64,000 bases of DNA from Escherichia coli. Its GTDB lineage: Bacteria; Pseudomonadota; Gammaproteobacteria; Enterobacterales; Enterobacteriaceae. Shown piece by piece: positions 39,097 through 41,399 of this stretch. The translations under genes were made by a program, and so were the position numbers. The notes beneath the pieces are model-generated. The model did no database searches. It worked only from the letters and a program-made list of their open reading frames with translations, and was not told the DNA's origin. Each line of letters opens with the position of its first letter. Position 1 is the first letter of the stretch. The stretch lies in the NCBI RefSeq assembly GCF_003334335.1, contig NZ_QOWQ01000010.1, one strand, 5' to 3'.

Positions 39097-39621
39097 GTGT
39101 TGGATAAACTGCGTTCCCGTATTGTGCATTTGGGGCCATCTCTGTTGAGTGTACCGGTAAAACTGACGCCATTTGCGCTAAAACGCCAGGTTCTTGAGCA
39201 GGTCTTAAGCTGGCAATTCCGCCAGGCGCTGGATGATGGCGAGCTGGAGTTTCTTGAAGGCCGCTGGTTAAGTATTCATGTGCGTGATATTGACCTGCAA
39301 TGGTTTACCTCGGTGGTGAATGGCAAACTGGTCGTTAGCCAGAACGCGCAAGCTGATGTGAGTTTTAGTGCCGACGCCAGCGATCTGCTGATGATTGCGG
39401 CGCGTAAACAAGATCCGGATACGCTCTTCTTCCAGCGTCGGCTGGTGATTGAAGGCGATACGGAGCTGGGGCTGTATGTGAAAAACCTGATGGACGCCAT
39501 TGAACTGGAGCAAATGCCGAAAGCCTTACGCATGATGCTGCTGCAACTGGCGGATTTTGTTGAGGCGGGAATGAAAACCGCGCCTGAAACCAAACAGACA
39601 TCGGTAGGTGAACCATGCTAA
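39097..39621 (+). CDS. ubiT: SCP2-domain lipid-binding protein UbiT (YhbT)
   Basis: ORF-track 39073..39621; start placed at GTG 39097 (VLDKLRSRIVHLGPSLLS..., 174 aa); divergent from ubiU. Confidence 0.85.
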   Translation: MLDKLRSRIVHLGPSLLSVPVKLTPFALKRQVLEQVLSWQFRQALDDGELEFLEGRWLSIHVRDIDLQWFTSVVNGKLVVSQNAQADVSFSADASDLLMIAARKQDPDTLFFQRRLVIEGDTELGLYVKNLMDAIELEQMPKALRMMLLQLADFVEAGMKTAPETKQTSVGEPC

Positions 39622-40118
39622 TTCGAGTAGAAATTCCCATTGATGCGCCGGGTATTGATGCCCTGCTGCGTCGCTCATTCGAAAGTGATGCGGAAGCGAA
39701 GCTGGTTCACGATCTGCGTGAAGATGGCTTTCTGACGCTGGGGCTGGTGGCGACAGATGACGAAGGTCAGGTCATTGGCTATGTGGCATTTAGTCCGGTT
39801 GATGTGCAGGGCGAAGACCTGCAATGGGTCGGCATGGCACCGTTGGCGGTTGATGAAAAATACCGTGGACAGGGGCTGGCACGCCAACTGGTCTATGAAG
39901 GACTCGATTCGCTTAATGAGTTCGGCTATGCCGCAGTGGTGACGCTGGGCGATCCGGCGCTGTACAGTCGTTTCGGCTTTGAACTGGCGGCGCATCACGA
40001 TCTGCGTTGCCGCTGGCCGGGCACTGAAAGCGCCTTCCAGGTACATCGTTTAGCGGATGACGCGCTGAATGGCGTTACCGGCCTGGTTGAGTATCACGAG
40101 CATTTCAATCGCTTTTAA
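39615..40118 (+). CDS. yhbS: GNAT-family N-acetyltransferase YhbS
   Basis: 167-aa ORF with acetyl-CoA-binding-like [10 protein letters not shown] motif; start overlaps ubiT stop. Confidence 0.88.
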
Positions 40119-40407
40119 TCTCCGGGGTTTGCAGACTGCTTAACAGCTCTGCAAACCCTGCGCCTTCCGCTACCAGACGCTCTTTTTGCCGTTTGGTCAG
40201 TTGCTTAACGCGATATTCCGCCCGTAACGCCAGCGAACGATCGCCCACTGGCGCGGAAAACACCAGCGTTAGTTCTCCTTTCCCGCGCAGTGCTTTCGCC
40301 CCTTTGCCGCTTTGGTGCTGCTGATAGCGGCGTTCGACATCCGTGGTGATCCCGGTATAAAGCTTATTGTCGGCGGTACGGATCAAGTAAAGAAACCAGG
40401 GTGTCAT
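40105..40407 (-). CDS. yhbQ: GIY-YIG-domain protein YhbQ (UPF0213)
   Basis: 100-aa [34 protein letters not shown]... with GIY-YIG-like LYLIR...LYTGIT motif. Confidence 0.85.
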
Positions 40408-40457
40408 CGTCTGCGTCGCATGTTAAGGTCAGGCCCACAGTATAAAAGAGAACAGCA

Positions 40458-40901
40458 ATGGAAACACTCATCGCCATCAGCCGTTGGCTGGCAAAACAAC
40501 ATGTTGTCACTTGGTGTGTGCAGCAGGAAGGGGAACTCTGGTGCGCTAATGCCTTTTATCTTTTTGATGCGCAGAAAGTCGCCTTCTACATTTTGACGGA
40601 AGAAAAAACGCGCCACGCGCAGATGAGTGGGCCGCAGGCTGCGGTTGCCGGAACGGTAAACGGTCAGCCGAAAACGGTAGCGTTAATTCGCGGTGTGCAG
40701 TTTAAAGGTGAGATCCGCAGGCTGGAAGGTGAGGAAAGCGACCTCGCGCGCAAGGCGTACAATCGTCGCTTTCCGGTTGCCAGAATGCTGTCGGCCCCGG
40801 TGTGGGAAATCCGGCTCGATGAAATCAAATTCACCGACAACACGCTGGGCTTTGGTAAAAAAATGATTTGGCTACGCGACTCAGGCACCGAGCAGGCGTA
40901 A
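40458..40901 (+). CDS. yhbP: Pyridoxamine-5'-phosphate-oxidase-like FMN-binding fold protein YhbP
   Basis: 147-aa [37 protein letters not shown]... Confidence 0.85.
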
Positions 40902-41399
40902 CGCCTCGCGGTTAAACGCTGGCAGATCGTCCGGTGTCCGGCTGGTAACCAGCTGATCTTTATCAACCACGACTTCCTGATCGTAAAATTCCGCGCCCGC
41001 ATTTTTAACATCAATAATGATCGGTTTAACTGCGGTCAGTTTGCGCCCCCGAATCACATCGGCGCTGATCAGCAACTGCGGGCCGTGACAGATGGCAAAC
41101 ACCGGTTTGCCACTATTCACAAAATCACGGGTAAAGGTGACAAAACGGTTGTCCCCACGCAGATAATCCGGTGAATGGCCGCCCGGTAGCAGCAGGGCAT
41201 CAAACTCCGCAGGCGTCACTTCATCGATGGATTTATCGATGGTCACGCTGGCTTCTCCTTTTTTGCCTTTCACCGTTTTACCCGCTTGTTTTTCAATGGT
41301 AATCACTTCGTGTCCGGCTTTACGGAACTCGTCTGCGGGTGAAGTAAATTCTGAATCCTCAAATTCATCAGTGATTAAAACGGCAATTTTCTTACTCAT
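40881..41399 (-). CDS. yhbO: DJ-1/PfpI-family stress protein YhbO
   Basis: ORF-track 40881..41441 trimmed to ATG 41399 ([18 protein letters not shown]...), 172 aa, with conserved AICHGP cysteine motif. Confidence 0.9.

What the first reader, a model, noticed from the sequence alone, without database searches (positions are those of the whole stretch)
39615..41399. Compact cluster of overlapping, alternately oriented small genes yhbS-yhbQ-yhbP-yhbO of unknown function
A GNAT acetyltransferase (yhbS, start overlapping the ubiT stop), a GIY-YIG-domain protein (yhbQ, 3' end overlapping yhbS by 14 nt), a PNPOx-like FMN-fold protein (yhbP) and a DJ-1/PfpI stress protein (yhbO, 3' end overlapping yhbP by 21 nt) are packed with convergent overlaps. 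None has an established molecular function to my knowledge. A GIY-YIG nuclease-like domain next to an acetyltransferase is an unusual pairing.
Basis: inference. Interest (0 to 1): 0.4.

Follow-up and report, generated by a model that had tools for sequence, protein, structure and literature searches.

The report
Known E. coli yhbS-yhbQ-yhbP-yhbO genes
This is the ordinary, already annotated E. coli gene block yhbS(hqbA)-yhbQ-yhbP-yhbO: the tail-to-tail overlaps are real and conserved, but three of the four genes already have published functions and the four do not form one system; only yhbP is still unexplained.

Summary
Four small genes alternate in strand at 39615-41399. The overlaps are exactly as stated: ubiT/yhbS 7 nt, yhbS/yhbQ 14 nt, yhbP/yhbO 21 nt.

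The stretch is core E. coli chromosome, found in 5425 of 5426 complete genomes.
- **YhbS** is HqbA, an Hfq-binding GNAT protein co-transcribed with ubiT under Fnr.
- **YhbO** is a crystallised, RpoS-dependent glyoxalase III/deglycase.
- **YhbQ** is named "DNA damage response exodeoxyribonuclease" in RefSeq.

Both convergent pairs are already listed in a published RNA-seq catalogue of overlapping transcripts (excludons).

Across about 170 related loci, ubiVU / ubiT-yhbS / yhbQ / yhbP is conserved in Enterobacterales. yhbO is missing from 38 of 81 loci. Outside the order, YhbP has other neighbours. I therefore read the block as conserved synteny of separate transcription units, not a functional module.

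One by-product may matter. YhbP, a confident PNPOx-like split barrel with no known function, lies beside UbiX or UbiD-UbiX, often with DUF554 and Idi, in four proteobacterial loci outside Enterobacterales. That suggests a role in handling flavin or prenylated FMN.

The parts
39097..39621 (+). ubiT (context): SCP2-domain accessory factor of O2-independent ubiquinone synthesis. It is the first gene of the ubiT-yhbS operon.
   Evidence: NCBIfam NF047962, 153.6 bits against a cutoff of 46.9. RefSeq annotation. RT-PCR shows ubiT and yhbS share one transcription unit (PMC10470549).
39615..40118 (+). yhbS = hqbA: GNAT-family protein that binds Hfq.
   Evidence: Pfam PF00583 1.1e-11. Near-identical to PDB 4RS2, E 8.8e-111. 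D98, E102 and Y117, the residues studied in HqbA, are present. Function from PMC10710024.
39615..39621 (+). 7-nt ubiT stop / yhbS start overlap (ATGCTAA), typical of translationally coupled operon genes.
   Evidence: Sequence. Conserved in 75 of 76 loci.
40105..40407 (-). yhbQ: single-domain GIY-YIG nuclease, 100 aa.
   Evidence: Pfam PF01541 4.5e-16, residues 4-76. PDB homologues 1ZG2 and 1YWL. RefSeq name 'DNA damage response exodeoxyribonuclease YhbQ'.
40105..40118 (.). 14-nt convergent 3' coding overlap of yhbS and yhbQ.
   Evidence: The overlap is 14 nt in 61 of 79 related loci. The pair is listed as a convergent excludon from RNA-seq.
40125..40158 (+). Perfect 11-bp inverted repeat with a 12-nt loop, 7 nt after the yhbS stop and inside the non-conserved C-terminal tail coding of yhbQ. 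Probably the 3'-end stem-loop of the ubiT-yhbS transcript (inferred).
   Evidence: A hairpin at this position recurs in other genera with different sequences. Mean folding z is -1.93 against -0.11 for control windows inside yhbS.
40408..40457 (.). 50-nt divergent intergenic region between yhbQ and yhbP.
   Evidence: The gap is 49-55 nt in most Enterobacteriaceae loci. The consensus promoter scan found nothing here.
40458..40901 (+). yhbP: YhbP/UPF0306 family, PNPOx-like FMN-binding split-barrel fold. Function not established.
40881..40901 (.). 21-nt convergent 3' coding overlap of yhbP and yhbO. It covers the low-confidence, non-conserved C-terminal tail of YhbP.
   Evidence: pLDDT is 64 for residues 141-147. 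The pair is listed as a convergent excludon.
40881..41399 (-). yhbO: DJ-1/PfpI-family glyoxalase III / deglycase, an RpoS-dependent stress gene.
   Evidence: Pfam PF01965 1.2e-57. TIGR01382, 233.6 bits against a cutoff of 139. PDB 1OI4, E 7e-111. The Cys104-His105 motif AICHG is present. Literature.

Best explanation
The region is a stretch of conserved Enterobacterales core-genome synteny that holds four separate transcription units packed tail to tail. It is not one functional system.

The four units:
- **ubiT-yhbS** is an Fnr-activated operon. [quoted passage not shown] It also has a separate acetyltransferase activity whose substrate is unknown.
- **yhbQ** encodes a minimal GIY-YIG nuclease.
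- **yhbP** is transcribed divergently from yhbQ across a 50-nt spacer. It encodes a split-barrel protein, probably flavin-binding, of unknown role.
- **yhbO** is an RpoS-dependent glyoxalase III that detoxifies glyoxal and methylglyoxal through Cys104. It is a dispensable gene lying between yhbP and yraR.

The short convergent coding overlaps fall in non-conserved C-terminal tails. They mean each mRNA's 3' end must run into its neighbour's coding sequence, which gives the overlapping antisense transcripts already catalogued as excludons.

Shown here or in the literature: gene identities, overlaps, synteny, and the published biochemistry. Inferred: that the overlaps themselves have only a modest regulatory effect, or none.
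For: - **Identity and ubiquity:** the stretch is present in 5425 of 5426 complete E. coli genomes, and RefSeq names all the genes.
- **Families:**
- **Published functions and regulation:** HqbA; the ubiT-yhbS operon, Fnr control, and no role of yhbS in UQ8 synthesis; YhbO glyoxalase and its RpoS dependence.
- **Synteny:** ubiVU / ubiT-yhbS / yhbQ / yhbP is present in 78 of 80 genome loci and in most metagenome loci. yhbO is absent from 38 of 81.
- **Outside Enterobacterales:** YhbP has unrelated neighbours.
- **Not a defence system:** no PADLOC hit for any of the four proteins.
- **Overlapping transcripts:** both convergent pairs are among the 165 convergent excludons of E. coli MG1655, so this arrangement is common.
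Against: - The yhbS / yhbQ / yhbP trio stays together down to about 41% YhbP identity. It persists in loci that lack ubiTUV (L086, L087, L096, L110, L165). That is more persistent than random synteny and could reflect a shared function or shared regulation.
- The exact 14-nt overlap and a hairpin just after the yhbS stop are conserved, which hints at selection on the 3'-end architecture.
- I could not find or read the primary paper behind the RefSeq name of YhbQ.
Confidence: 0.85

Rival explanations
1. The overlaps are a regulatory device (excludon). Convergent transcription across the 14-nt and 21-nt overlaps makes expression mutually exclusive: anaerobic Fnr-driven ubiT-yhbS against yhbQ, and stationary-phase RpoS-driven yhbO against yhbP. 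The mechanism would be transcriptional interference or RNase III cleavage of the sense/antisense duplex.
For: - Both pairs are in the core E. coli excludome, seen in at least 50% of 58 transcriptomes.
- Overlap length is strongly conserved.
- A structurally conserved hairpin lies just downstream of the yhbS stop inside yhbQ.
- The two partners of each pair are under different, condition-specific regulators.
Against: - No experiment on these particular pairs was found. The catalogue only shows overlapping coverage.
- 165 convergent pairs in E. coli behave this way, so overlap alone does not show regulation.
- yhbP keeps its place and sequence in the 38 loci without yhbO. In other genera it overlaps whatever gene lies downstream, such as nrdG or ridA.
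- Conservation of overlap length may simply reflect conserved stop codons.
Confidence: 0.3
2. yhbS, yhbQ and yhbP form a functional module, for example a nucleic-acid damage or RNA-quality pathway that combines an acetyltransferase, a nuclease and a flavoprotein. The conserved adjacency would reflect that shared function.
For: The GNAT / GIY-YIG / YhbP arrangement is conserved across Enterobacteriaceae, Erwiniaceae, Yersiniaceae (Rahnella) and Morganellaceae. It also persists where ubiTUV is absent.
Against: - The genes are on alternating strands with separate promoters.
- yhbS is in an operon with ubiT.
- Deleting yhbQ or yhbP did not affect the YhbS multicopy phenotype.
- YhbP homologues outside Enterobacterales are never next to a GIY-YIG or GNAT gene in the roughly 10 contexts seen.
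- Inserted genes break the block in some lineages: ydgH in Morganella, and 1.5-kb inserts in L074 and L077.
Confidence: 0.12
3. The cluster is a mobile defence or toxin-antitoxin locus, with a GNAT toxin or a GIY-YIG effector.
For: GNAT toxins and GIY-YIG nucleases do occur in such systems (general knowledge). yhbO shows presence/absence variation.
Against: - No PADLOC match for any protein.
- The locus is core in 5425 of 5426 E. coli genomes and syntenic across the order.
- There is no adjacent antitoxin-like gene in an operon with the GNAT; the upstream gene is ubiT.
- HqbA is abundant and non-toxic at native levels.
Confidence: 0.02

Closest known systems
E. coli K-12 locus ubiT-yhbS(hqbA) / yhbQ / yhbP / yhbO (RefSeq/PGAP annotation)
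   Same: 100% DNA identity to many E. coli chromosomes, with the same genes, coordinates and overlaps.
   Different: Nothing. The window is this locus.
HqbA (YhbS), the Hfq-binding GNAT acetyltransferase (Luo et al. 2023, PMC10710024); PDB 4RS2
   Same: The sequence matches 4RS2 at E 8.8e-111. The Hfq-contact residues D98 and E102 and the active-site residue Y117 are present.
   Different: None. The physiological acetylation substrate is still unknown.
YhbO, DJ-1/PfpI-family glyoxalase III / deglycase (PDB 1OI4)
   Same: E 7e-111 to 1OI4. Passes the TIGR01382 cutoff. Cys104-His105 are present.
   Different: None. It lacks the cPGA hydrolase activity of YajL/DJ-1.
Slx1 / YazA / UPF0213 branch of the GIY-YIG nucleases
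   Same: The GIY-YIG (URI) domain covers residues 4-76. The closest solved structures are the UPF0213 proteins BH0048 (1ZG2) and EF2693 (1YWL). YhbQ is cited as a member of the Slx1 family.
   Different: YhbQ is only 100 aa and contains no cysteine, so it lacks the C-terminal PHD/RING zinc finger of Slx1. No Slx4-like partner is evident.
Convergent excludons (ExcludonFinder catalogue, PMC12288877)
   Same: yhbO-yhbP and yhbQ-yhbS are both listed among the 165 convergent excludons of MG1655.
   Different: Mutually exclusive expression has not been shown for these two pairs.
PhdC / YclD prFMN maturases and the LpdD prFMN chaperone (accessory proteins of UbiD-UbiX systems)

Membership tests
GNAT acetyltransferase / HqbA (YhbS) | GNAT fold with an acetyl-CoA binding core | tested here: met
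   PF00583 1.1e-11, PF13508 9.8e-11. E 8.8e-111 to PDB 4RS2, which was crystallised with CoA.
GNAT acetyltransferase / HqbA (YhbS) | Hfq-contact residues D98 and E102, and catalytic Y117 | tested here: met
   All three residues are present at those positions. Their roles are taken from PMC10710024.
GIY-YIG nuclease (YhbQ) | GIY-YIG catalytic domain over its full length | tested here: met
   PF01541 4.5e-16, model positions 2-77 of 78.
GIY-YIG nuclease (YhbQ) | Catalytic Tyr/Arg/His/Glu constellation | tested here: inconclusive
   Y7, Y17, R26/R27, H31 and E64 are present in the expected order. I did not align them residue by residue to a characterised enzyme.
Slx1 structure-specific endonuclease | C-terminal PHD/RING-type zinc finger and an Slx4 partner | tested here: not met
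   The protein is 100 aa, has no cysteine, and has no domain beyond residues 4-76.
DJ-1/PfpI/YhbO glyoxalase-deglycase (YhbO) | Family HMM above the curated cutoff, plus the nucleophile-elbow Cys-His | tested here: met
   TIGR01382, 233.6 bits against a cutoff of 139.05. PF01965 1.2e-57. AIC104H105G motif. PDB 1OI4.
YhbP (UPF0306) family | NCBIfam equivalog NF002900 above its cutoff | tested here: met
   267 bits against a cutoff of 176.
PNPOx-like FMN-binding split barrel (YhbP) | Split beta-barrel fold | tested here: met
PNPOx-like FMN-binding split barrel (YhbP) | Sequence membership of Pfam PNPOx families, and actual FMN binding | tested here: not met
   No Pfam hit even at E<=10. The profile against PDB gives only marginal hits (best E 0.0035). 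Cofactor binding cannot be tested with these tools.
PhdC-type prFMN maturase (considered for YhbP) | Conserved Glu47/Glu136 and the C-terminal ExW motif; close structural similarity to PhdC | tested here: not met
Single operon / functional gene cluster (all four genes) | Co-directional co-transcription, and co-occurrence of all members | tested here: not met
   Strands alternate +,-,+,-. yhbO is absent from 38 of 81 loci. YhbP has other neighbours outside Enterobacterales.
Convergent excludon | Overlapping convergent transcripts | not testable with these tools
   Taken from the literature: both pairs are listed in at least 50% of 58 MG1655 transcriptomes. Mutual exclusion has not been shown.
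Anti-phage defence system | Match to a known defence protein model | tested here: not met
   No PADLOC family for any of the four proteins at E<=0.01.

The most novel reading that the evidence does not exclude
YhbP, the only gene of the block without a function, may be an accessory protein of the UbiX/UbiD prenylated-FMN system. It could be a flavin or prFMN carrier, a reductase or a maturase. It would be analogous in role to the actinobacterial PhdC or to LpdD, but is not homologous at family level to PhdC.

Evidence from gene neighbourhoods outside Enterobacterales:
- YhbP-family genes lie directly downstream of ubiX in a Neisseria genome and in a metagenomic contig.
- They sit in ubiD-ubiX-DUF554-(idi)-yhbP arrays in a gammaproteobacterium-like contig and on a Neorhizobium plasmid.

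In Enterobacterales, yhbP sits about 0.8 kb downstream of the ubiT stop, in the same conserved block as ubiTUV, the O2-independent ubiquinone genes. E. coli UbiD cannot be isolated in active form, and the oxidant for prFMN maturation without O2 is unknown. YhbP could be the missing factor.
Probability: 0.2. Interest if true: 0.65.

Novelty: already known. Interest (0 to 1): 0.15.

Why it matters
As submitted, the finding does not open anything new. The genes, their overlaps and their overlapping transcripts are annotated and published, and three of the four products have characterised activities.

The useful outcomes are corrective:
- The block should not be treated as an uncharacterised module.
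- The GNAT/GIY-YIG adjacency is conserved synteny without evidence of coupling.
- yhbO is a dispensable insertion.

The one thread worth passing on is YhbP. A cheap genetic and biochemical test could show whether it acts in prenylated-FMN supply or maturation for UbiD. That step is unresolved for E. coli, especially under anaerobiosis.

Tried and rejected
- **Promoter/terminator scan of 38800-41700:** counts were no higher than in shuffles, and nothing was found in the yhbQ-yhbP spacer.
- **NCBIfam for YhbQ:** no model.
- **Pfam and PDB sequence search for YhbP:** nothing significant.
- **Primary paper behind the YhbQ nuclease name:** not in the searchable library.
- **Scans with A2 and A4:** both worked but returned mostly Enterobacterales, since the best 80 are ranked by similarity. 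The sample of non-enterobacterial YhbP contexts therefore stayed small, at about 10.
- **Longer YhbP-family proteins checked for informative domain fusions:** none found; the extensions carry no recognised family.
- **Defence-system reading:** rejected.
- **GNAT toxin-antitoxin reading:** rejected on operon structure, because ubiT lies upstream and there is no antitoxin.
- **YhbP as a heme-binding HugZ/At3g03890-like protein:** remains possible on fold alone. It is neither supported nor excluded.
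Full report
**Observation**

The ORF list and sequence show four small genes on alternating strands:
- yhbS 39615-40118 (+)
- yhbQ 40105-40407 (-)
- yhbP 40458-40901 (+)
- yhbO 40881-41399 (-)

ubiT (39097-39621, +) lies upstream. The yhbS ATG lies within the last 7 nt of ubiT (ATGCTAA). yhbS and yhbQ share 14 nt at their 3' ends, and yhbP and yhbO share 21 nt.

A megablast of 38900-41900 found the stretch in 5425 of 5426 complete E. coli genomes. RefSeq annotation of a 100% identical record has the same genes with the same overlaps. Convergent overlaps are set by stop codons, so they cannot come from wrongly chosen start codons.

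**What the genes are**

- **YhbS** is a GNAT protein, essentially identical to PDB 4RS2.
- **YhbQ** is a single GIY-YIG domain covering residues 4-76. Its solved homologues are 1ZG2 and 1YWL.
- **YhbO** is a DJ-1/PfpI protein. It passes the TIGR01382 cutoff, is identical to PDB 1OI4, and has the Cys104-His105 elbow.

**What is already known**

The statement that none of the four has an established function is out of date.
- YhbS was renamed HqbA. It binds the distal face of Hfq tightly and displaces low-affinity RNAs such as the metZWV and proM precursors. This does not depend on the acetyltransferase site (Y117) but does depend on D98 and E102 (PMC10710024). All three residues are present here.
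- yhbS is co-transcribed with ubiT and induced by Fnr. It also has an aerobic expression level that suggests an internal promoter. It is not needed for UQ8 synthesis.
- YhbO is repeatedly described as a glyoxalase III/methylglyoxalase, with kinetics and a crystal structure. It lacks cPGA hydrolase activity and is RpoS-dependent.
- YhbQ is grouped with Slx1 and YazA, and RefSeq calls it 'DNA damage response exodeoxyribonuclease YhbQ'. I could not find the primary paper in the library. At 100 aa with no cysteine, it lacks the zinc finger that defines Slx1 proper.
- For yhbP, the literature search returned only incidental mentions.
yhbO-yhbP and yhbQ-yhbS are both among the 165 convergent 'excludons' found in at least half of 58 MG1655 transcriptomes.

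**Neighbourhood conservation**

I ran a genome scan seeded with a YhbP alignment and compared each locus with the window's proteins, extending each hit to its stop codon.
- The block ubiV-ubiU / ubiT-yhbS / yhbQ / yhbP is present in 78 of 80 loci. These span Enterobacteriaceae and one Erwiniaceae genome. In Dickeya, yhbP stands elsewhere.
- The ubiT/yhbS 7-nt overlap is present in 75 of 76 loci.
- The yhbS/yhbQ overlap is 14 nt in 61 of 79 loci, 4 nt in 8, 17 nt in 5, and absent in 5.
- yhbO is missing from 38 of 81 loci, including many Citrobacter, E. albertii, Kluyvera, Buttiauxella, Raoultella and Trabulsiella. It is therefore a dispensable gene between yhbP and yraR.

More distant YhbP homologues show the same GNAT / GIY-YIG / YhbP arrangement. 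These include Rahnella, Morganella, a Morganellaceae-like genome and several unassigned contigs. Some of these loci lack ubiTUV altogether. There, yhbP overlaps or abuts whatever lies downstream, such as nrdG, ridA or a DJ-1 gene.

Outside Enterobacterales, none of about ten YhbP contexts contains a GIY-YIG or GNAT neighbour.

No protein matches a known defence family. Deleting yhbQ or yhbP from a yhbS plasmid did not alter the YhbS phenotype.

**Interpretation**

The best reading is conserved synteny of four independent transcription units with different regulators (Fnr for ubiT-yhbS, RpoS for yhbO). They are packed so tightly that their 3' ends overlap. The overlapped codons lie in non-conserved tails:
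- The YhbQ domain ends at residue 76.
- The last seven residues of YhbP have pLDDT 64 and lie beyond the conserved core.

A regulatory excludon effect is possible and is the main add-on hypothesis, but it is untested for these pairs. A three-gene functional module (yhbS-yhbQ-yhbP) is not excluded, given how persistent the trio is. It has no positive evidence and some evidence against it.

**3'-end structure (side observation)**

A perfect 11-bp inverted repeat with a 12-nt loop lies at 40125-40158, starting 7 nt after the yhbS stop and inside the yhbQ tail coding. In other genera a hairpin occupies the same position with quite different sequences. Over 121 distinct 53-nt windows the mean folding z-score is -1.93, against -0.11 for control windows inside yhbS (Mann-Whitney p about 3e-17). 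The sequences are related, so this p-value overstates independence. No U-tract follows the hairpin on either strand. I therefore read it as a likely 3'-end or stabilising stem-loop of the ubiT-yhbS mRNA rather than a canonical intrinsic terminator. This is inference only.

**YhbP lead (by-product)**

Among the non-enterobacterial contexts, a UbiX-family flavin prenyltransferase lies directly upstream of the YhbP gene, on the same strand, in two places. One is a Neisseria genome (L090) and the other a metagenomic contig (L092); both UbiX genes are above the NCBIfam cutoff.

Two further loci carry fuller arrays:
- A 642-kb metagenomic contig (L144) carries a tight same-strand array: UbiD-family decarboxylase, UbiX, DUF554 membrane protein, isopentenyl-diphosphate isomerase, YhbP (202.7 bits against a cutoff of 176), then an SDR.
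- A Neorhizobium plasmid (L177) carries ubiD, ubiX, DUF554 and a YhbP-like gene, with idi nearby.

The DUF554 proteins of L144, L177 and Telmatospirillum L091 are 55-56% identical. The DUF554-YhbP pair therefore recurs three times, and UbiX lies within 1.5 kb four times.

Other contexts also involve flavins or UbiD-type chemistry:
- nifQ-YhbP-apbE (FAD:protein FMN transferase) in L083.
- A weaker YhbP-like gene beside a sigma-54 regulator and PEP-utilising (phenylphosphate-synthase-like) genes on an Azoarcus plasmid.

The prFMN literature shows that a small split-barrel protein, PhdC, matures prFMN for UbiD enzymes. It also reports that E. coli UbiD cannot be isolated active, that PhdC-like sequences are confined to Actinomycetota, and that the oxidant used without O2 is unknown (PMC13040415).

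No paper in the library links YhbP or DUF554 with UbiX. The sample is small and partly related by descent, and a heme-binding role is equally compatible with the fold. I put this at about 20%.

**Verdict**

The feature is already known and ordinary for E. coli, so its interest as submitted is low. The YhbP-UbiX/UbiD association is recorded as the most novel reading not excluded.

Noticed in passing
L090:3256-4423; L092:3376-4435; L144:494-5309; L177:2118-5408; L091:3248-4441 (relates to window 40458-40901): Outside Enterobacterales, YhbP-family genes lie directly downstream of UbiX, or inside UbiD-UbiX-DUF554-(Idi)-YhbP arrays. The DUF554-YhbP pair recurs in three loci. This suggests that YhbP handles flavin or prenylated FMN.
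   Followed up: partly
window 40125-40158: A perfect 11-bp hairpin with a 12-nt loop starts 7 nt after the yhbS stop, inside the yhbQ C-terminal coding. A hairpin at the same position is kept in other genera with different sequences (mean z -1.93 against -0.11 for controls). No U-tract follows it.
   Followed up: partly
window 40881-41399; loci L002-L081: yhbO is absent from 38 of 81 related loci, including E. albertii, many Citrobacter, Kluyvera, Buttiauxella and Raoultella. Two Escherichia loci look disrupted: L002 lacks the C-terminal part, and L003 has only a 63-nt remnant and has also lost yraR and yraQ.
   Followed up: partly
L083:3824-7495: A YhbP homologue (45% identity) sits between nifQ and apbE (FAD:protein FMN transferase), in a nifB/nifA-like/rnf cluster of an unassigned assembly.
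   Followed up: partly
L084:5001-8095; L175:4001-7832; L079:5989-9493: In Morganella, a related Morganellaceae-like genome and Dickeya, yhbP is followed convergently by nrdG-nrdD (anaerobic ribonucleotide reductase). In L084 the overlap with nrdG is 20 nt. In L079 the assignment rests only on ORF sizes and position. yhbP forms tail-to-tail overlaps with different partners in different lineages.
   Followed up: no
L074 and L077, between yhbS and yhbQ: About 1.5 kb of extra DNA separates yhbS from yhbQ in 'Klebsiella sp. BIGb0407' and an uncultured Cedecea. L159 and L169 look similar. The content was not examined.
   Followed up: no
L178:4974-5432 (E. coli O170:H18 IncFIB plasmid NZ_CP076707.1): A second, plasmid-borne YhbP-family gene (154.6 bits, below the cutoff) sits inside a cluster annotated as phenazine-biosynthesis protein, NRPS, FAD oxidoreductase, DAHP synthase and ClbA-like PPTase.
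   Followed up: no
L179:4989-5453 (Azoarcus sp. KH32C plasmid pAZKH): A distant YhbP-like PNPOx-family gene (66 bits) directly follows a sigma-54 regulator. It lies next to two PEP-utilising-enzyme genes that resemble phenylphosphate synthase. In related bacteria, that pathway's carboxylase is UbiD-type (from general knowledge).
   Followed up: no
hits H1 and H2 (E. coli NCTC9087; strain EEC_W5): In two E. coli genomes the 3-kb query matches in two pieces that span an extra ~0.3 kb and ~0.8 kb. The latter is annotated as an IS1 insertion within this block. The exact insertion sites were not located.
   Followed up: no
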